Shown in pieces: positions 1 to 35,782 of a stretch of DNA of 35,782 nt. Location of the stretch: the IMG/VR virus record IMGVR_UViG_2651869830_000003. One strand, written 5' to 3'. This DNA comes from a virus. Its lineage: Duplodnaviria; Heunggongvirae; Uroviricota; Caudoviricetes. How positions within the stretch are numbered: position 1 is the stretch's first letter; the number at the start of each line of letters is the position of its first letter. The position numbers were made by a program, and so were the translations under genes. The notes beneath the pieces were generated by a model. It made no database searches, had not been told where the DNA came from, and was given only the letters and a program-made list of their open reading frames with translations.

Positions 1-333
1 ATGGGGGAAGGTGAGGTGAATAAAATAGCTGCTATATCATTAATTAGTGTTTTTCTTATGTCTGGTTGTGCTGTGCATAATGATGAGACAAGTATCGGTA
101 AATTTGGCCTTGCATATAAAAGTAATATTCAGCGTAAACTCGATAACCAATACTACACCGAAGCCGAAGCTTCTTTAGCCAGGGGTAGAATATCTGGTGC
201 AGAAAATATAGTAAAAAATGATGCAACTCATTTCTGTGTTACTCAGGGCAAAAAAATGCAAATAGTTGAGCTGAAGACAGAAGGTGTAGGATTACATGGT
301 GTCGCTCGTCTGACATTCAAATGTGGAGAGTGA
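1..333 (+). CDS. Small putative lipoprotein, host gene flanking the prophage; possibly yegR by position only. Start uncertain: ATG at 1 or GTG at 16, which would give 105 aa.
   Basis: ORF track 110 aa. N-terminal hydrophobic stretch ending in a lipobox-like LMSGC. Moderate GC. Lies outside attL. Confidence 0.4.
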   Translation: MGEGEVNKIAAISLISVFLMSGCAVHNDETSIGKFGLAYKSNIQRKLDNQYYTEAEASLARGRISGAENIVKNDATHFCVTQGKKMQIVELKTEGVGLHGVARLTFKCGE

Positions 334-492
334 GAATATTTTTTGGTAAGCGTCAAATATGCGCGTTCTGGCTGTGCGTAGCCGGAACCTGTGGGAGCAC
401 GATGCCGATAAGTGAAAGGCATCGTGCTATGAAGGAGGATTCTATCGATGTGGTCAATGGAAGACGGTTACCAGAGATAGGGCTTATGCATA

Positions 493-519
493 AAAAAATA
501 AGCCCGTGTAAGGGAGATT
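493..519. repeat. attL core, 27 bp: aaaaaataagcccgtgtaagggagatt.
   Basis: Identical 27-mer at 34260-34286. Sits 80 bp from the 3' end of the integrase gene. Confidence 0.85.
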
Positions 520-598
520 TAGGGTGTCACCAGTAGGGGCTTTCAACGGTACAATGCGGGTTTGAGCGGCATAAATTACCACTGAAAGCCCTTAAACG

Positions 599-1612
599 TT
601 ACTCTACTGTGGACACTGTGTGGACACTCTCGGCCTCAGTGCCACCTCTTAGCGGATTAAGAGAAATGGCGTCCTGAAGGTACTCTGGCGCAAAATGAGC
701 GTAAACCATAGTTTGCTCAATCCGCGTGTGACCTAGTATCCGTTGTAGCGTGATAATACTTCCTCCATTAATCATGAAATGAGTGGCAAAGCTGTGCCTT
801 AGTGCATGTGTGGCTTGCCCCATTGGCAAATCCGGTTTTATTGCTTTCATTGTTCGTCTGAAGCGAGGGTAATCAGCATCAGGGAATAAAAAACCTCGTT
901 TGTTATCCGCGATCATTTTGGCAACAGCCTCTGAGATCGGGACGGTGCGTGGTTTGTTTGTTTTCGTTTTAACAAACGTGACGCGGTTATGGATGATATT
1001 TTCTGCTTTCAAACGAGCTGCTTCTCCCCAACGTGCTCCAGTACTCAGGCAAAGAATCGCAATCTTTTTATTGTCGCCGTCAAGAGCAGCAAGCAGTAAG
1101 GCAATTTCTTCCTGCGTGAGATAGCCTGTGTCTGGTTTTTCCTCCTTAAGCCTTTTTGTCCCTCTGATAGGGTGCTCACCAAAGAATAACTCCGCTTCAA
1201 TCAGGGCTGTAAACATGCCGCTAATACATGTTAAATCACGATTGATACTCGAAGGTTTAATACCCTGACTTCTTCGGGTGGCGCAGTACTGGCTGATAAG
1301 CGATTTCGTAATTTGAAATGCGCATGGGTCATTCGTTATTTTTGTGAAGATTTCAATTTTTCCAAGATTAGATTTCCCATGCTCTTCGTGTTTACCCTTT
1401 AAATCCCACCAGATCTGTGTCAGCTCCGACAGACGTCGCTTGTCTGTTGGTTTTGATAGCCATTCTTTATTGTGGTGGTTGTACAACGTGTATTTCTCGA
1501 AAGCGACAGCTTCGCTTTTCTTATCAAACTTCCTACGGATGCGTTTTCCATTACGTCCAGTAGGGCGGATGTCCACTTCATATCGACCATCATCGAGTTT
1601 TTTGATTGCCAT
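599..1612 (-). CDS. int: Tyrosine site-specific integrase, P2 Int-like, 337 aa.
   Basis: ATG start confirmed (cat at 1610-1612). Length equals P2 Int. C-terminal HxLRHxxAT...Y catalytic region visible (ATHALRHSFATHF...VYAHF). Adjacent to att core. Confidence 0.9.
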   Translation of the reverse strand: MAIKKLDDGRYEVDIRPTGRNGKRIRRKFDKKSEAVAFEKYTLYNHHNKEWLSKPTDKRRLSELTQIWWDLKGKHEEHGKSNLGKIEIFTKITNDPCAFQITKSLISQYCATRRSQGIKPSSINRDLTCISGMFTALIEAELFFGEHPIRGTKRLKEEKPDTGYLTQEEIALLLAALDGDNKKIAILCLSTGARWGEAARLKAENIIHNRVTFVKTKTNKPRTVPISEAVAKMIADNKRGFLFPDADYPRFRRTMKAIKPDLPMGQATHALRHSFATHFMINGGSIITLQRILGHTRIEQTMVYAHFAPEYLQDAISLNPLRGGTEAESVHTVSTVE

Positions 1613-1727
1613 CAGAAAACCCTCCGAGTGGTGTGTTTTTTGGCGACTACTAATCGCTTTTTTCGTGGTGGCTGAAATTTAGCCACCAATAGTAGGCACT
1701 TGTGATGAATATATTCACGATGAATTG

Positions 1728-2027
1728 TTAACCAGTCTTTTGACCGGAGTGGGGCGACGTTGTTTCGTTTTGCCCAAAGTGTGCGAGAGCGGGCGCAATT
1801 TGCCCGGACTCAGGAGCGATCTGATTGGTCATGAACCATAAAGTGTATTTGGTGAATTGTGGGGTCTGCAGGATGTTCATCATGACATCTGTTGGAGGTG
1901 TTGAACGACCACTTTCATAGTAACTCAGCGTGCCATACGGAACCCCTGTTAAATCAGCAAGTTGTTGTCTGCTCAAATACTCTGATTTTCGCATTAAGAC
2001 TATCTTCTCGCTTATCGTGTTTGACAT
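1728..2027 (-). CDS. C: Immunity repressor C, 99 aa, helix-turn-helix.
   Basis: Length and position match P2 C. HTH-like segment LSRQQLADLTGVPYGTLSYYESG. Divergent from cox. Confidence 0.85.
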   Translation of the reverse strand: MSNTISEKIVLMRKSEYLSRQQLADLTGVPYGTLSYYESGRSTPPTDVMMNILQTPQFTKYTLWFMTNQIAPESGQIAPALAHFGQNETTSPHSGQKTG

Positions 2028-2063
2028 GGTGTTTAGATCTCAATAGTATTTAGTTTAGATGTA
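2021..2063 (+). promoter_or_regulatory. Early promoter Pe: -35 TTGACA (2021-2026), 17-bp spacer, -10 TAGTAT (2044-2049). Direct-repeat operator half-sites TTTAGAT at 2032-2038 and 2054-2060, 22 bp apart, flank the -10.
   Basis: Sequence read directly. The layout matches the known P2 C operator (direct repeats flanking the Pe -10). Confidence 0.55.
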
Positions 2064-2141
2064 GATTGTTTAGTGCTTGGATGTGGGCACTAAAAGGCAT
2101 TATAAGGCATTAAACGCAATTCATGAGGGCTGGAGGACGAC

Positions 2142-2417
2142 ATGAGCAAGCAAGTAACACTCATGACTGATGCGATTCCTTATCAGGAGTTCGCAAAACT
2201 AATAGGAAAATCGACAGGAGCGGTTCGTCGGATGATCGATAAAGGAAAGCTGCCTGTAATTGATATGACCGATCCACAATCAGCTTCAGGTCGTGCTGGT
2301 GAATATTGGGTATACCTTCCGGCATGGAATAACGGACTAAAACTGGCTTATGAAAGCCGTCCTAAAGAGATTCGTGACGTCTGGTTGATGTGGTTAGGTC
2401 TCGGTGAACCACGTTAA
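2142..2417 (+). CDS. cox: Cox excisionase and transcriptional regulator, 91 aa.
   Basis: First gene of the rightward early operon. Length equals P2 Cox. SD ggagga upstream. Confidence 0.85.
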   Translation: MSKQVTLMTDAIPYQEFAKLIGKSTGAVRRMIDKGKLPVIDMTDPQSASGRAGEYWVYLPAWNNGLKLAYESRPKEIRDVWLMWLGLGEPR

Positions 2418-2427
2418 GGAGAACCGT

Positions 2428-2598
2428 ATGAATGAGCCTCGTTGTATTGCTCAGTTATTGCGTAACGAAAGCCCCAGGGCAATTGACTTCACAATCACCC
2501 ACGGTAAGGGGCGTAAGGGAATCATTATCCGCACCAAAAAACAGAGTCCGTTAAAAAAGGCTCTGACCTTTCTGAAAAGCCGGAGGGTCTGGAAATGA
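2428..2598 (+). CDS. Small early-operon protein, 56 aa, P2 orf78-like.
   Basis: ATG at 2428 preceded by aaggag. Track ORF 2404-2598 trimmed to the SD-supported start. Confidence 0.5.
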   Translation: MNEPRCIAQLLRNESPRAIDFTITHGKGRKGIIIRTKKQSPLKKALTFLKSRRVWK

Positions 2599-3095
2599 CA
2601 GTGATGACGCTCAATCTCGTTGAAAAACAGCCAGCAGCTATGCGCCGGATAATTGGTAAGCATCTGGCCGTCCCTCGCTGGCAGGAGACATGCGATTATT
2701 ATAATCAGATGATGGAACGCGAACGGCTAACGGTTTGCTTCCATGCGCAGTTAAAACAGCGTCACGCAACGATGCGTTTTGAAGAAATGAACGACGTCGA
2801 ACGTGAACGGCTGGTTTGTGCAATTGATGAATTGCGTGGGGCATTCTCAAAACGCCGTCAGGTTGGCGCAAGTGAGTATGCATATATTAGTTTTTTAACA
2901 GTCAGTCAGCGTCGTACTTTATTTATGCATGCCGGATTGACTGAAAAAGAATTCAACCAGCCATACTGGCGAATTAATGAAGAATCATGTTACTGGCGTG
3001 ATGCTTTATTCCGTGCATTACGTGAATTATTCAGCCTGTTTGAGTATGCACCGACAATTCTGACGTCGGTAAAACCAGAGCAATATCTGCATTAA
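2595..3095 (+). CDS. B: Replication protein B-like, 166 aa (helicase-loader function in P2).
   Basis: Position after cox. Length identical to P2 B. SD ggaggg upstream. Confidence 0.65.
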   Translation: MTVMTLNLVEKQPAAMRRIIGKHLAVPRWQETCDYYNQMMERERLTVCFHAQLKQRHATMRFEEMNDVERERLVCAIDELRGAFSKRRQVGASEYAYISFLTVSQRRTLFMHAGLTEKEFNQPYWRINEESCYWRDALFRALRELFSLFEYAPTILTSVKPEQYLH

Positions 3096-21358: not shown

Positions 21359-23404
21359 ATGAGCACAAAATTCAGAACCGTTATCACCACTGCCGGTGCA
21401 GCAAAGCTGGCAGCGGCAACCGCACCGGGAGGGCGGAAGGTCAACATTACCACGATGGCCGTCGGGGATGGCGGTGGTAAATTGCCTGTCCCGGATGCCG
21501 GACAGACCGGACTTATCCATGAAGTCTGGCGACATGCGCTGAACAAAATCAGCCAGGACAAACGAAACAGTAATTATATTATCGCAGAGCTGGTTATTCC
21601 GCCGGAGGTGGGCGGTTTCTGGATGCGTGAGCTTGGCCTGTACGATGATGCGGGAACATTAATTGCCGTGGCGAACATGGCCGAAAGTTATAAGCCAGCT
21701 CTCGCCGAAGGCTCAGGGCGTTCGCAGACCTGTCGCATGGTCATCATCGTCAGCAGTGTGGCCTCAGTGGAGCTGACCATTGACACCACAACAGTGATGG
21801 CGACGCAGGATTACGTTGATGACAAAATTGCAGAGCACGAACAGTCACGACGTCACCCGGACGCCTCGCTGACCGCCAAAGGTTTTACTCAGTTAAGCAG
21901 TGCGACCAACAGCACGTCTGAAACACTGGCCGCAACGCCGAAAGCGGTAAAGGCCGCGTATGACCTTGCTAACGGGAAATATACTGCGCAGGATGCCACC
22001 ACAGCGCGAAAAGGTCTTGTCCAGCTCAGTAGTGCCACCAACAGCACGTCTGAAACGCTCGCTGCAACACCAAAAGCCGTTAAGACGGTAATGGATGAAA
22101 CGAACAAGAAAGCGCCATTAAACAGCCCTGCACTGACCGGAACGCCAACGACGCCAACTGCGCGACAGGGAACGAATAATACTCAGATCGCAAACACGGC
22201 TTTCGTTATGGCCGCGATTGCCGCCCTTGTAGACTCGTCGCCTGACGCACTGAATACGCTGAACGAGCTGGCGGCGGCGCTGGGCAATGACCCGAATTTT
22301 GCTACCACCATGACTAATGCGCTTGCGGGTAAGCAACCGAAAGATGCTACCCTGACGGCGCTGGCGGGGCTTGCTACTGCGGCAGACAGGTTTCCGTATT
22401 TTACGGGGAATGATGTTGCCAGCCTGGCAACCCTGACAAAAGTCGGGCGGGATATTCTGGCTAAATCGACCGTTGCCGCCGTTATCGAATATCTCGGTTT
22501 ACAGGAAACGGTAAACCGAGCCGGGAACGCCGTGCAAAAAAATGGCGATACCTTGTCCGGCGGGCTTACTTTTGAAAACGACTCAATCCTTGCCTGGATT
22601 CGAAATACTGACTGGGCAAAGATTGGATTTAAAAATGATGCCGACAGCGATACTGATTCATATATGTGGTTTGAAACAGGTGACAACGGCAATGAATATT
22701 TCAAATGGAGAAGTCGCCAGAGCACCACAACAAAAGACCTGATGAATCTTAAATGGGATGCTCTGTATGTTCTTGTTAAAGCCCTTTTCAGCAGTGAAGT
22801 AAAAATATCTACAGTCAATGCGCTGAGGATATTTAATTCATCTTTTGGTGCTATTTTTCGCCGTTCTGAAGAAAACCTGTATATCATTCCTACACGAGAA
22901 AATGAGGGTGAAAATGGAGATATTGGGCCATTAAGGCCATTCGGCATCAACTTAAGAACAGGAGTTGTGTCTGTTGGTAATGGTGCCAGGATTGATGGCG
23001 GGCTGGCACTTGGCACGAATAACGCGTTGGGTGGGAACTCTATTGTTCTTGGTGATAACGACACCGGATTTAAACAAAATGGCGATGGTAATCTGGATGT
23101 TTATGCTAATAACGTCCATGTTATGCGCTTTGTTTCCGGAAGCATTCAAAGTAATAAGACCATAAATATTACGGGGCGTGTTAATCCCTCGGATTACGGT
23201 AACTTTGATTCCCGCTATGTGAGAGATATCAGACTTGGCACACGTGTTGTCCAGACCATGCAGAAAGGGGTGATGTATGAGAAAGCAGGGCACGTAATTA
23301 CCGGGCTTGGTATTGTCGGTGAAGTCGATGGTGATGACCCCGCAGTATTCAGGCCAATACAAAAATACATCAATGGCACATGGTATAACGTCGCACAGGT
23401 GTAA
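21359..23404 (+). CDS. H: Tail fiber protein H, 681 aa.
   Basis: Position matches P2 H. Conserved N-terminal region, then repeated QLSSATNSTSETLAATPKAVK motifs and a lower-GC C-terminal part. Confidence 0.85.
   Translation: MSTKFRTVITTAGAAKLAAATAPGGRKVNITTMAVGDGGGKLPVPDAGQTGLIHEVWRHALNKISQDKRNSNYIIAELVIPPEVGGFWMRELGLYDDAGTLIAVANMAESYKPALAEGSGRSQTCRMVIIVSSVASVELTIDTTTVMATQDYVDDKIAEHEQSRRHPDASLTAKGFTQLSSATNSTSETLAATPKAVKAAYDLANGKYTAQDATTARKGLVQLSSATNSTSETLAATPKAVKTVMDETNKKAPLNSPALTGTPTTPTARQGTNNTQIANTAFVMAAIAALVDSSPDALNTLNELAAALGNDPNFATTMTNALAGKQPKDATLTALAGLATAADRFPYFTGNDVASLATLTKVGRDILAKSTVAAVIEYLGLQETVNRAGNAVQKNGDTLSGGLTFENDSILAWIRNTDWAKIGFKNDADSDTDSYMWFETGDNGNEYFKWRSRQSTTTKDLMNLKWDALYVLVKALFSSEVKISTVNALRIFNSSFGAIFRRSEENLYIIPTRENEGENGDIGPLRPFGINLRTGVVSVGNGARIDGGLALGTNNALGGNSIVLGDNDTGFKQNGDGNLDVYANNVHVMRFVSGSIQSNKTINITGRVNPSDYGNFDSRYVRDIRLGTRVVQTMQKGVMYEKAGHVITGLGIVGEVDGDDPAVFRPIQKYINGTWYNVAQV
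21890..22084 (+). repeat. Two copies of a 63-nt imperfect direct repeat (21890-21952 and 22022-22084) encoding the tail-fiber motif QLSSATNSTSETLAATPKAVK.
   Basis: Repeat seen at both nucleotide and protein level within H. Confidence 0.7.
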
Positions 23405-33929: not shown

Positions 33930-34148
33930 ATGTTTCATTGTCCTTTATGCCAGCATGCCGCACATGCGCGTACAAGCCGCTATATCACTGACACGACAAA
34001 AGAGCGTTATCACCAGTGTCAGAACGTGAATTGCAGCGCCACGTTCATCACTTATGAGTCGGTACAGAGATACATCGTGAAGCCGGGAGAAGTCCACGCC
34101 GTAAGGCCGCACCCGTTGCCGTCAGGGCAGCAAATTATGTGGATGTAA
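33930..34148 (+). CDS. ogr: Ogr late-gene transcriptional activator, zinc finger, 72 aa.
   Basis: ATG at 33930 (MFHCPLCQ). CxxC...CxxxxC zinc-binding motif. Last phage gene before attR, as in P2. Confidence 0.8.
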   Translation: MFHCPLCQHAAHARTSRYITDTTKERYHQCQNVNCSATFITYESVQRYIVKPGEVHAVRPHPLPSGQQIMWM

Positions 34149-34160
34149 TTACAAACAGGA

Positions 34161-34186
34161 AGCCCCTCAGTCGAGGGGCTTTTTTG
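34161..34186 (+). terminator. Rho-independent terminator after ogr.
   Basis: 8-bp perfect stem agcccctc/gaggggct with loop agtc, followed by a T6 tract. Confidence 0.65.
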
Positions 34187-34259
34187 TCGATGTGGTCAAT
34201 GTGTGGACGTGACCAGAAATAAATCCTTTTATTTCATTGTATTACGCGTAAAAAATAAG

Positions 34260-34286
34260 CCCGTGTAAGGGAGATTACACAGGCTA
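34260..34286. repeat. attR core, 27 bp, identical to attL.
   Basis: Exact match to 493-519. Downstream of the ogr terminator. Confidence 0.85.
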
Positions 34287-34420
34287 AGGAGGTGGTTCCT
34301 GGTACAGCTAGCATTTTATGGGTTATGTTTTTCAGCGAAACGGATGATAACCTTAATAAATGCAGCTGTATGTGATCGGTTTCTAAGAATTTTCCATCCG
34401 GGAAAAATAATCGAAATTAA

Positions 34421-35782
34421 TCACTTACCGTGTGGGTTACGCGTGGTTTCCCCGGAGAAATTACGCATCAGCAGAGCGTAATTGAGCTCAAGATCCTGCG
34501 GGACCGGGAGCCACACAGTATAACCATCGCCTGGTGCGACCGGCATCGCTTCACCTTTGGCGTTTTCCATGTGCTCAAGGGTAAAGTTAATGTTGCCTTG
34601 CGGCGTCATCAGCTCAAGGCTGTCGCCAACGGAGAATTTATTTTTCACCGCTACCGCCGCGAGGTCCCCCTTGCGCTCACCGGTAAACTCACCAACAAAC
34701 TGCTGGCGGTCAGAAACTGAATAACCGTATTCGTAGTTCTGATAATCGTCGTGAGTATGACGACGCAGGAAACCTTCGGTATAGCCACGATGCGCCAGAC
34801 CTTCCAGAGTTTCCAGCAGGCTGGTATCGAACGGTTTGCCCGCAGCGGCGTCATCGATAGCTTTACGGTAAACCTGTGCGGTGCGTGCGCAATAGTAGAA
34901 AGATTTAGTACGGCCTTCGATTTTCAGCGAATGCACGCCCATTTTGGTCAGGCGTTCTACATGGGCGATGGCGCGCAGATCTTTCGAGTTCATGATGTAA
35001 GTGCCGTGCTCATCTTCAAACGCGGTCATATACTCGCCCGGACGCTGGGCTTCTTCGATCATAAACACTTTGTCGGTTGGCGCGCCGATACCCAGCGTCG
35101 GCTCAACATTTTGCACCGGAATCGGCTCGTACTTGTGTACGATGTTGCCAACGTCATCTTCTTTCCCTTCCTGGACGTTGTACTCCCAGCGGCAGGCGTT
35201 GGTGCAGGTACCCTGGTTCGGATCGCGCTTGTTGATATAGCCAGAGAGCAGGCAGCGACCGGAGTAGGCCATGCACAGTGCGCCGTGAACGAAGATCTCG
35301 ATCTCCATATCCGGCACCTGATTGCGGATCTCTTCAATCTCTTCCAGCGACAGCTCGCGAGAGAGGATCACGCGGGTCAGGCCCATTTGCTGCCAGAATT
35401 TCACCGTCGCCCAGTTTACGGCGTTAGCCTGCACCGAGAGGTGGATCGGCATTTCAGGGAAGTGCTCACGCACCAGCATAATCAGCCCTGGATCGGACAT
35501 AATCAGCGCATCCGGCCCCATTTCCACCACCGGTTTCAGGTCACGGATAAAGGTTTTCAGCTTGGCGTTGTGCGGTGCAATGTTGACCACGACATAAAAC
35601 TTTTTCCCCAGCGCGTGGGCTTCATTGATGCCGAGCTGAAGATTTTCGTGGTTGAATTCGTTGTTGCGCACACGCAGGGAGTAACGCGGCTGGCCCGCAT
35701 AAACAGCATCTGCGCCATAAGCGAAAGCGTAACGCATATTTTTCAGCGTTCCCGCCGGGGAAAGGAGTTCCGGTTTAAACAT
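34421..35782 (-). CDS. yegQ: Peptidase U32-family protein YegQ (TrhP-like), 453 aa; host gene flanking attR.
   Basis: N-terminal sequence MFKPELLSPAGTLKNMRYAFAYGADAVYAG recognised as YegQ. Host-like GC content. Outside the prophage. Confidence 0.7.
   Translation of the reverse strand: MFKPELLSPAGTLKNMRYAFAYGADAVYAGQPRYSLRVRNNEFNHENLQLGINEAHALGKKFYVVVNIAPHNAKLKTFIRDLKPVVEMGPDALIMSDPGLIMLVREHFPEMPIHLSVQANAVNWATVKFWQQMGLTRVILSRELSLEEIEEIRNQVPDMEIEIFVHGALCMAYSGRCLLSGYINKRDPNQGTCTNACRWEYNVQEGKEDDVGNIVHKYEPIPVQNVEPTLGIGAPTDKVFMIEEAQRPGEYMTAFEDEHGTYIMNSKDLRAIAHVERLTKMGVHSLKIEGRTKSFYYCARTAQVYRKAIDDAAAGKPFDTSLLETLEGLAHRGYTEGFLRRHTHDDYQNYEYGYSVSDRQQFVGEFTGERKGDLAAVAVKNKFSVGDSLELMTPQGNINFTLEHMENAKGEAMPVAPGDGYTVWLPVPQDLELNYALLMRNFSGETTRNPHGK

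What the first reader, a model, noticed from the sequence alone, without database searches (positions are those of the whole stretch)
445..519. Host-side flank of attL resembles the phage-side arm of attR beyond the 27-bp core
A 15-bp string tcgatgtggtcaatg occurs at 445-459 (33 bp left of the attL core, on the bacterial side) and again at 34187-34201 (just after the ogr terminator, on the phage side, 58 bp left of the attR core). The intervening sequences show patchy similarity. A bacterial flank resembling a phage attP arm suggests the target site is itself the scar of an earlier P2-like element, or that tandem or replacement integration occurred.
Basis: seen in the sequence. Interest (0 to 1): 0.4.

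Follow-up and report, generated by a model that had tools for sequence, protein, structure and literature searches.

The report
Fossil P2 prophage arm beside attB
The bacterial DNA next to this P2-like prophage resembles the phage's own attachment-site arm because nearly all E. coli carry, just downstream of the cyaR small-RNA gene, the decayed end of a much older P2-like prophage; this is an ordinary kind of genomic scar, though an unusually well delimited one.

Summary
TCGATGTGGTCAATG occurs at 445-459 and 34187-34201, each left of a copy of the 27-bp core (493-519, 34250-34276). The gap to the attR core is 48 nt, not 58.

The 15-mer is the left half of the annotated P2 Int P-arm binding site. 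The core is the terminator of the cyaR sRNA gene.

The host flank pre-dates this prophage. It is 100% identical in empty sites and present in 5366 of 5426 complete E. coli genomes, including K-12.

In about 55 other Enterobacteriaceae species, including Escherichia sp. E1V33, yegS starts roughly 70-130 nt from the core and no arm motif is present.

E. coli instead carries a 0.8-1.0 kb island at exactly the att position:
- a degenerate second core (17/27; 20/27 in a sister lineage);
- 30 nt resembling the P2 P' arm (20/30);
- yegR;
- a degenerate P arm containing the 15-mer.

Rarer E. coli haplotypes keep 12 more P-arm-like bases.

So the flank is the attR end of a collapsed ancient P2-like prophage. 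Each new P2 phage integrates to its right. Tandem or replacement integration in this strain is not supported.

This is a new example of a known kind; interest is modest.

The parts
16..333 (+). yegR, a small lipoprotein gene almost confined to E. coli. It lies inside the fossil island, between the old degenerate core (outside the window, to the left) and the fossil P arm.
   Evidence: RefSeq annotation of the identical empty site. The YegR family is almost only E. coli. No yegR occurs in the cyaR-yegS interval of outgroups.
334..492 (+). Host-side flank of attL. It is the right-hand part of the fossil island and is inherited, not created by the resident prophage.
   Evidence: 100% identical in empty sites. 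Window 334-519 (this flank plus the 27-bp attL core) was found in 5366 of 5426 E. coli genomes.
396..428 (+). Strong hairpin (11-bp stem, 11-nt loop) with no T-run. Possibly a decayed terminator that preceded the ancient P arm; its function is unknown.
   Evidence: strand folding gives z = -4.55 for 385-492. No terminator-like site was called.
440..479 (+). Fossil P arm: a degenerate copy of the P2 Int arm-site region. The first repeat is intact, the second repeat is 5/8, and the ACCAGAGATA tail is retained.
   Evidence: D13 (75% ungapped); P2 annotation.
445..459 (+). The 15-mer TCGATGTGGTCAATG. It is identical to the first 15 nt of the annotated P2 Int P-arm binding site and contains the arm repeat TGTGGTCA.
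   Evidence: Arm consensus tgTGGaCa from PMC3448106.
493..519 (+). attL core, the 27-bp copy of the cyaR 3' end.
   Evidence: D16.
520..633 (+). P' arm of the resident prophage. By transfer from the P2 annotation, the Cox region is about 536-609 and the Int P' arm repeats CTGTGGACACTGTGTGGACA lie at 607-633.
   Evidence: P2 coordinates shifted by -9.
599..1612 (-). Integrase gene of the resident P2-like prophage (337 aa).
   Evidence: P2 int annotation.
33930..34148 (+). ogr, the late-gene activator and last gene of the resident prophage.
   Evidence: Translation. It is 98.6% identical to the E. coli and E. ruysiae copies.
34159..34182 (+). ogr / F-operon rho-independent terminator.
   Evidence: Transferred from the P2 annotation; sequence.
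34187..34214 (+). Int arm-type binding site of the live P arm (two direct repeats). Its first 15 nt are the second copy of the 15-mer.
34218..34251 (+). IHF site of the live P arm, by transfer from the P2 annotation.
34250..34276 (+). attR core. It is also the terminator and 3' end of cyaR.
   Evidence: D16.
34253..34338 (-). cyaR (RyeE) small RNA gene. Its 3' terminator is the P2 att core.
   Evidence: Rfam RF00112, 100.7 bits, E = 3.4e-19.
34421..35782 (-). yegQ / trhP, the host gene upstream of cyaR.
   Evidence: Annotation of identical empty sites.

Best explanation
**What the flank is.** The host flank of attL is the attR-side end of a collapsed, ancient P2-like prophage that lies immediately downstream of cyaR in essentially all E. 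coli.

**Proposed sequence of events.**
1. An early P2-like element integrated by Int-mediated recombination into the 27-bp cyaR terminator, upstream of yegS. (The insertion relative to outgroups is shown; that Int carried it out is inferred.)
2. The element was then deleted internally down to about 0.8-1.0 kb. (Shown by the surviving structure.)
3. What remains is: a decayed left core, about 30 nt of P'-arm-like sequence, an AT-rich spacer, yegR (possibly former cargo; inferred), a hairpin, a degenerate P arm, and the intact right core that still terminates cyaR.
4. That intact core is today's attB (the classical P2 site locI; this identification is from memory).
5. Every later P2-like phage, including the one in this window, integrates at that core, to the right of the fossil. 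Its attL is therefore flanked on the host side by the fossil P arm. Its own live P arm sits at attR.

**Why the 15-mer survives perfectly.** The 15-mer is the first Int arm-type repeat. This is the most conserved part of the arm among P2-type phages, so the ancient and modern phages were probably identical there. The E. coli copy simply has not mutated. (Inferred.)

**Function.** The fossil arm most likely has no function now. Its second arm repeat and IHF site are degenerate, and its spacing to the core differs from the live arm by 16 nt.
For: 1. **The 15-mer is part of a known Int site.** It is the first 15 nt of the annotated Int P-arm binding site of P2 (NC_001895).

2. **The arm is a phage module, not cyaR-linked.**
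- The arm architecture follows the ogr terminator in P2-like phages with unrelated cores (Wphi, L-413C, R18C, ENT4, YPM-4, phiT5282H).
- The identical arm is joined to at least 4 different cores in viral contigs.

3. **The flank pre-exists the prophage.**
- A synthetic empty site matches as one piece in 4565 of 5426 genomes, at 100% identity in strain Ecol_AZ155.
- Window 334-519 (flank plus attL core) is present in 5366 of 5426 genomes, across K-12, O157:H7, UTI89, Nissle and Shigella flexneri.
- K-12 has the flank plus the known D'-ogrK remnant, and therefore two copies of the 15-mer.

4. **Outgroups lack it.** In about 55 of 117 Enterobacteriaceae species representatives, including Escherichia sp. 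E1V33, yegS starts about 70-130 nt from the core. Their arm-motif scores are at background.

5. **The island begins exactly where the outgroup core begins.** Homology with the outgroup B arm (about 85%) runs up to that point. It is followed by a degenerate core:
- 17/27 in E. coli (p about 4e-4);
- 20/27 in the sister lineage L096 (p about 3e-6).

6. **P'-arm-like sequence follows the old core.** The next 30 nt in E. coli match the P2-type P' arm at 20/30 in nearly the same register. Only 3 of 20000 random genomic positions reach this.

7. **Rarer haplotypes are more arm-like.** Haplotypes L130, L131 and L161 keep 12 more nt, matching the P2 segment TAAATCCTTTTA. Their B arm is 59 nt against 63 nt for the P arm, and 0 of 5000 shuffles reach the similarity beyond the 15-mer.

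8. **Other species have similar remnants at the same site.** Examples are E. albertii (an IS-truncated arm), Enterobacter soli, Enterobacter sp. Bisph1 (with an int fragment) and Citrobacter sp. Awk 4.
Against: - No recognisable phage gene survives in the island.
- YegR has no homologue in 50,697 phage records, apart from records that include host flank. Its rare distant homologues are not P2-linked.
- The P'-arm-like stretch is not preserved in L096. A free-end global alignment of the whole P' arm against the island's left end is not significant.
- The right-hand flanks of E. coli and L096 are far more diverged from each other than yegR is. A single shared scar is therefore not proven; layered or independent scars remain possible.
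- A perfect 15/15 match beside a left core that is only 63% preserved is somewhat uneven decay.
- The outgroup sampling of Escherichia is thin. E. fergusonii was not retrieved, E. marmotae was not retrieved under that name, and L028 is unnamed.
Confidence: 0.85

Rival explanations
1. The fossil arm site is maintained because it still works. The host-side TGTGGTCA repeat binds the N-terminal arm-binding domain of P2 Int. This would influence site preference for locI, or the assembly and excision behaviour of attL. This rival is compatible with a scar origin.
For: - The 15-mer is a perfect copy of a footprinted Int site.
- It is invariant in 11 of 12 sampled E. coli flank haplotypes.
- It is better preserved than the old left core, which is 17/27.
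Against: - The second arm repeat (5/8) and the IHF site are degenerate.
- Spacing to the core varies between haplotypes, 48 versus 59 nt from the start of the 15-mer, against 63 nt in the phage.
- L096 and Shigella flexneri have lost or mutated the motif.
- With about 13% variable sites in the flank, an invariant 15-nt stretch is expected about 12% of the time (my calculation).
- The accepted model is that attB is the core only (PMC3448106).
Confidence: 0.1
2. The direction of transfer is reversed. A P2 ancestor picked up E. coli DNA downstream of cyaR, for example by aberrant excision, and that DNA became its P arm.
For: Phages that integrate into RNA genes do carry host-derived 3' gene ends. 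Here the core is the cyaR terminator.
Against: - The two-repeat arm directly after the ogr terminator is shared by P2-like phages with unrelated cores and hosts.
- It matches the P' arm repeats of the same phages.
- The host motif is absent from the cyaR-yegS interval of about 55 other species.
- The host copy is the degenerate one.
Confidence: 0.03
3. A recent event occurred in this strain. Tandem or replacement integration, or imprecise excision of a previous P2 prophage, left an arm fragment beside the present attL.
For: K-12 shows that partial P2 remnants can persist at this site.
Against: - The flank is 100% identical to that of prophage-free strains and is species-wide.
- There is only one prophage and one pair of cores in the window.
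- No hybrid of flank plus a full P2 arm occurs in one piece in 5426 genomes.
Confidence: 0.01
4. The resemblance is chance.
For: About 0.6 exact 15-nt repeats are expected in a window this size, and three others exist.
Against: - The two copies share strand and offset relative to the two cores.
- 0 of 2000 shuffles reach the arm-versus-flank score.
- Longer haplotypes extend the colinearity.
- A degenerate core lies at the other end of the island.
Confidence: 0.01

Closest known systems
The cryptic P2 remnant of E. coli K-12 (yegZ/D' - ogrK - attR) at the locI position.
   Same: It lies at the same att site (the cyaR terminator). It is the same kind of object: the attR-proximal end of a P2-like prophage left behind after internal deletion. 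In K-12 the left deletion end lies inside the attL core.
   Different: The K-12 remnant still has ogr, part of D and a perfect P arm, and it is strain-specific. The fossil described here is older and nearly species-wide. It has lost all recognisable phage genes and lies to the left of the K-12 remnant. K-12 therefore carries both layers.
P2 attP P arm (Int arm-type repeats plus an IHF site).
   Same: The flank carries an identical first arm repeat with its left context. It is colinear with the arm through to the core in the long haplotypes.
   Different: The second repeat and the IHF site are degenerate. The spacing is shortened by 4-16 nt. No ogr or terminator lies upstream. Binding was not tested.
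Degraded prophages and integrative-element scars at tRNA, tmRNA or sRNA genes (general phenomenon).
   Same: It is an insertion at the 3' end of a small RNA gene. It is bounded by a decayed direct repeat of the att core and contains an orphan gene.
   Different: It is unusually small. It still serves as the flank of an actively used attB. The surviving piece includes a recognisable recombinase arm site.

Membership tests
Prophage remnant (scar) bounded by att repeats | An insertion relative to the orthologous locus of related species, located exactly at the att site. | tested here: met
   In about 55 of 117 species representatives, including Escherichia sp. E1V33, yegS starts about 70-130 nt from the core. 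In E. coli the colinearity breaks exactly at the core position.
Prophage remnant (scar) bounded by att repeats | Direct repeats of the att core at both ends. | tested here: met
   The right core is intact (27/27). The left core is 17/27 in E. coli and 20/27 in L096, in a fixed register (p about 4e-4 and 3e-6).
Prophage remnant (scar) bounded by att repeats | Phage-derived sequence inside, in the correct orientation: P' next to the left core and P next to the right core. | tested here: met
   P arm: 0 of 2000 shuffles and 0 of 5000 for the long haplotype. P' proximal 30 nt: 20/30, reached by 3 of 20000 random positions. The P' signal is absent in L096.
Prophage remnant (scar) bounded by att repeats | Residual phage genes. 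| tested here: not met
   Only yegR remains. It has no phage homologue outside records that include host flank, and no Pfam hit in the local library.
Functional P2-type P arm | Two direct repeats matching tgTGGaCa. | tested here: not met
   The first repeat, TGTGGTCA, is identical to that of P2. At the second position the flank has GGAAGACG against TGTGGACG, 5/8.
Functional P2-type P arm | An IHF site between the arm repeats and the core, with phage-like spacing. | tested here: not met
   The window haplotype lacks 16 nt of the region and is dissimilar there. The long haplotypes keep a degenerate version, 59 nt against 63 nt.
Functional P2-type P arm | Bound by the Int N-terminal domain. | not testable with these tools
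   Requires a gel-shift or footprinting experiment.
P2 attB (locI type) | A core identical to the attP core that overlaps the cyaR terminator. | tested here: met
   The 27/27 core lies at 493-519 and 34250-34276, and cyaR at 34253-34338. Empty sites carry one copy.
Tandem or replacement lysogen | A second prophage copy, or an attP-like hybrid junction created in this strain. | tested here: not met
   There is a single pair of cores and one prophage. The flank is identical in empty sites. No hybrid junction occurs in 5426 genomes.

The most novel reading that the evidence does not exclude
The fossil Int arm repeat on the bacterial side is not inert. It recruits the arm-binding domain of P2 Int at attB and attL. 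This would contribute to the strong preference of P2 for this site, or to the poor and Cox-dependent excision of P2 from it. Flank haplotypes (48-nt versus 59-nt spacing) would then differ in lysogenisation or curing frequency. On this reading a phage would have shaped its own landing pad through an earlier integration.
Probability: 0.1. Interest if true: 0.55.

Novelty: new member of a known kind. Interest (0 to 1): 0.3.

Why it matters
- It explains a puzzling resemblance without invoking anything exotic.
- It shows that the classical P2 attachment site in E. coli is not pristine host DNA. It is the live end of an old, collapsed P2-like prophage.
- It suggests that the E. coli-specific orphan gene yegR arrived with that element.
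- Practically, prophage-boundary and attB-calling software may be misled by arm-like sequence on the host side of attL. Two public 'phage' records already include this host DNA.
- It offers natural flank variants for testing whether arm-type sites next to an attB affect a tyrosine integrase.

Tried and rejected
- **Phage match to the flank.** I searched 50,697 phage records with the host flank (distant mode, E up to 10) for a phage whose arm matches it better. Only two records that contain host DNA matched, plus spurious Vibrio hits.
- **Refreshed scar.** I searched 5426 E. coli genomes for flank + 15-mer + full P2 arm, as would arise from recombination between the two 15-mers. None occurs in one piece. 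The top hits are K-12-type two-piece matches.
- **yegR as phage cargo.** YegR has no phage homologue and no Pfam hit in the local copy. Distant homologues sit in an IS-rich region of an Enterobacter genome or among housekeeping genes, not in P2 contexts. Cargo genes between ogr and the P arm do exist in other prophages at this site, so the idea stays an inference.
- **Whole P' arm alignment.** A free-end global alignment of the whole P' arm against the island's left end collapsed to a trivial alignment and was not significant. Only the fixed-register test of the first 30 nt is significant.
- **Literature.** The primary P2 att-site paper and the CyaR paper are not held. Searches for cyaR/ogrK/yegQ/P2-like and for yegR with prophage found no description of this fossil.
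- **My own error.** My first Ogr query was out of frame. It was corrected; ogr is 33930-34148.

Full report
**1. Layout of the window**

The window runs from yegR to yegQ/trhP, with one P2-like prophage between them.

| Feature | Coordinates | Evidence |
|---|---|---|
| yegR (RefSeq start at 16) | 16-333 | |
| Host flank | 334-492 | |
| attL core | 493-519 | |
| int | 599-1612, minus strand | |
| ogr | 33930-34148 | |
| P arm | 34187-34249 | |
| attR core | 34250-34276 | |
| cyaR (Rfam CyaR_RyeE, 100.7 bits) | 34253-34338, minus strand | |
| yegQ/trhP | 34421-35782, minus strand | |

The 27-bp core is therefore the terminator and 3' end of the cyaR small RNA gene.

**2. The observation**

- TCGATGTGGTCAATG occurs exactly twice, at 445-459 and 34187-34201, both on the + strand.
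The gap to the attR core is 48 nt, not 58.
- Similarity extends beyond the 15-mer. A 40-nt ungapped stretch (440-479 against 34182-34221) is 75% identical. A gapped alignment reaches ACCAGAGATA / ACCAGAAATA.
- With the cores excluded, the arm-versus-flank local score is 38 against a shuffle mean of 14.7. None of 2000 shuffles reaches it.
- A bare 15-nt repeat is not remarkable in 35.8 kb. About 0.6 are expected by chance, and three others of 15-20 nt exist. The matching position and orientation relative to the two cores are what count.

**3. What the 15-mer is on the phage side**

- The P2 reference record annotates TCGATGTGGTCAATGTGTGGACGTGACC as the Int binding site of the P arm. An IHF site and then the core follow it. 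The 15-mer is the left half of that site and contains the first arm repeat, TGTGGTCA.
- PMC3448106 gives the arm consensus tgTGGaCa. It describes attB as identical to the attP core only.
- The same architecture is found in P2-like phages that have unrelated cores: Wphi, L-413C, R18C, ENT4, YPM-4 and phiT5282H. The architecture is a terminator, two direct repeats, an A/T-rich IHF-like stretch and then the core.
- The arm is therefore a phage module. It is not something tied to cyaR.

**4. The host flank pre-dates this prophage**

- A synthetic empty site (1-519 joined to 34277-35000) matches as a single piece in 4565 of 5426 complete E. coli genomes. It is 100% identical in strain Ecol_AZ155, which carries the 15-mer and one core.
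- Window 334-519 (the flank plus the attL core) is found in 5366 of 5426 genomes.
- In twelve sampled sequences the 15-mer is invariant except in the Shigella flexneri sequence, which has TCCATG. The twelve include the window itself, K-12, O157:H7, UTI89 and S. flexneri. A Nissle-type flank, seen only as a BLAST row, scores the same as the UTI89-type flank.
- K-12 has the flank, a truncated core, the known D'-ogrK remnant with a perfect P arm, and then the live core. It therefore also carries the 15-mer twice.
That criterion is not met.

**5. The flank is not ancestral host DNA**

- A scan of one genome per species for cyaR returned 117 loci.
- In about 55 of them yegS starts about 70-130 nt from the core. 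These include Klebsiella, Enterobacter, Kosakonia, some Citrobacter, Leclercia and Escherichia sp. E1V33. The intervening sequence has no arm-like motif, with scores at background.
- E. coli is colinear with Escherichia sp. E1V33 from the yegS start up to the exact position where the outgroup core begins, at about 85% identity.
- At that position E. coli has AAAAAGTCAGTTCAAGCATGGGTAATT. This matches the P2 core at 17/27 in a fixed register (p about 4e-4).
- A sister lineage, L096, is labelled E. coli SCPM-O-B-8794 but is a separate species representative. It has AAACCGTCAGTCTGCATAAGAGAGATT, which matches the outgroup core at 20/27 (p about 3e-6).
- In E. coli the next 30 nt match the P2-type P' arm at 20/30 with a 1-nt shift. 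Only 3 of 20000 random genomic positions reach that.
- After that come about 300 nt of AT-rich DNA, yegR, a 170-nt segment in some lineages, the hairpin, the fossil P arm and the live core. The 170-nt segment is present in B2-type strains and L096 and is deleted in the window's lineage.
- The island is 0.8-1.0 kb long. It has the layout attL' - P' ... P - attR.

**6. Rarer flank haplotypes strengthen the homology**

- Strains JNE23-011 and ECOCN22 keep 12 extra nt, TCAATCCGTCTC, which correspond to TAAATCCTTTTA in P2. 149 genomes fall in the same 80-90% identity band as these two.
- In these strains the host arm is 59 nt against 63 nt in the phage. 46 of 68 alignment columns are identical. None of 5000 shuffles reaches the similarity beyond the 15-mer.
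- A third long variant appears in viral contig L161.
- L096 keeps the IHF-proximal half well: GGGCGTAACCAGAAACAAATCTTTTAATTCAATT against GGACGTGACCAGAAATAAATCCTTTTATTTCAATT, with 0 of 2000 shuffles. It has lost the 15-mer half.

**7. The phenomenon is general at this site**

- Species representatives with an arm-like sequence but only a short insert between cyaR and yegS include Enterobacter soli FFMG-34-3-21 (1.8 kb), Enterobacter sp. Bisph1 (2.3 kb, with an int fragment) and Citrobacter sp. Awk 4 (2.8 kb).
- E. albertii has an arm truncated next to IS-like DNA.
- Full or larger P2-like elements sit at the same core in E. ruysiae, Citrobacter youngae and others. Some of them carry cargo genes between ogr and the P arm.

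**8. Mechanism**

Shown:
- The core is the cyaR terminator.
- The island is an insertion at the att position and is bounded by core repeats.
- Its right end is colinear with a P2 P arm.
- The flank is inherited and is not strain-specific.

Inferred:
- An ancient P2-like phage integrated at cyaR by Int-mediated recombination and then collapsed by deletion. K-12 shows an intermediate stage of the same process.
- yegR may be former cargo.
- New phages integrate at the surviving right core, so the fossil arm always ends up on the host side of their attL.
- The 15-mer is perfect probably because it is the most conserved part of the arm among P2-type phages, and the host copy has not yet mutated.

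**9. Rivals**

- **Host-to-phage transfer.** This is contradicted by the distribution of the arm in phages with other cores and by its absence from outgroup chromosomes.
- **A recent tandem or replacement integration in this strain.** This is contradicted by the identical empty sites. In addition, no hybrid of flank plus a full arm occurs in 5426 genomes.
- **A retained function for the host-side arm repeat.** This cannot be excluded but has little support. The second repeat and the IHF site are degenerate, the spacing varies, and an invariant 15-nt stretch is expected about 12% of the time given the variability of the flank.

**10. Weak points**

- No phage gene survives in the island.
- YegR has no phage homologue, and its distant relatives are not P2-linked.
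- The P'-like stretch is not seen in L096.
- The E. coli and L096 right flanks differ far more than yegR does. The present arm fossil could therefore be a younger layer than the left core.
- Sampling of the Escherichia outgroups is thin.
- I could not read the original P2 att-site papers, so I cannot rule out that the flank homology was noted before.
- yegR inactivation had no phenotype in one chemostat study (PMC3708739).

**11. Verdict**

The scar extends to a whole yegR island. It is a further example of a known kind, a degraded prophage at an RNA-gene att site. It has modest interest and a low-probability functional twist.

Noticed in passing
window 34250-34338 (minus strand): The P2 27-bp att core is the terminator and 3' end of the cyaR (RyeE) sRNA gene, and the phage-borne core reconstitutes it. 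Variants of the same core, differing by 1-3 nt, are used by P2-like elements in Citrobacter, Enterobacter and other genera.
   Followed up: partly
L003 639-808 (strain NE88); the same segment is inferred for UTI89- and Nissle-type B2 strains from their alignments. It corresponds to window position about 339.: A 170-nt AT-rich segment lies directly after the yegR stop in these strains. It is homologous to a longer segment in the sister lineage L096, so it is ancestral and has been deleted in the window's lineage.
   Followed up: partly
window 396-428: A very stable hairpin (11-bp stem, z = -4.55 for 385-492) without a T-run lies between yegR and the fossil arm, and it is conserved across E. coli. 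It may be a decayed terminator; its function is unknown.
   Followed up: partly
L130 and L131 (strains JNE23-011 and ECOCN22); L161: Flank haplotypes with 12 extra nt between the 15-mer region and the core. They are closer to a full P2 arm than the common haplotype. About 149 genomes fall in their identity band.
   Followed up: partly
L143 4683-6330 (IMGVR_UViG_2084038018_000015): A P2-like prophage end with two tandem terminator-plus-P-arm units, 1.5 kb apart. The inner unit is followed by a non-cyaR core and two unknown ORFs. The outer unit is followed by the cyaR core and cyaR. It may be an att-specificity switch intermediate or a layered remnant.
   Followed up: no
L137 (E. coli NCTC9100), 1501-3052: In this strain the flank matches only for its first 53 nt. 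It then runs into an 'oxidoreductase' pseudogene and a tail-fibre gene, which is a different rearrangement at the same locus.
   Followed up: no
L055 2900-3010 (E. albertii NBRC 107761): An independent P-arm scar lies next to the cyaR core: CAGTGGACGCGATCAGAAATAAACCCTATTATTTCATTAAATTACGCGT. It is truncated on its left beside transposase-like DNA.
   Followed up: partly
GenBank AY639599 (L005) and ON470606: The record 'Phage TP' is a K-12-type chromosomal remnant: partial yegR, the flank, ogr and yegQ, with yegQ annotated as a protease. The phage record vB_EcoM-720R8 includes host yegR and the flank. Both are host DNA filed under phage names.
   Followed up: partly
L058, L046 and L119 (prophages at cyaR in Citrobacter youngae and an Enterobacter species): ogr ends about 0.5-2.4 kb from cyaR. 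That leaves roughly 0.4-2.3 kb between ogr and the P arm, so this position appears to hold cargo in some P2-like phages.
   Followed up: no
window 21878-22084; 19947/32973; 28295/29493: Other direct repeats occur in the prophage. One is a 75-nt repeat at 80% identity, spaced 132 nt apart and with a 20-nt exact core, probably a repeated domain in a tail-fibre-region gene. Two are isolated exact repeats of 15 and 17 nt.
   Followed up: no
window 321-536 (+): A 71-aa ORF spans the yegR stop, the flank and the attL core. It is most likely spurious.
   Followed up: no
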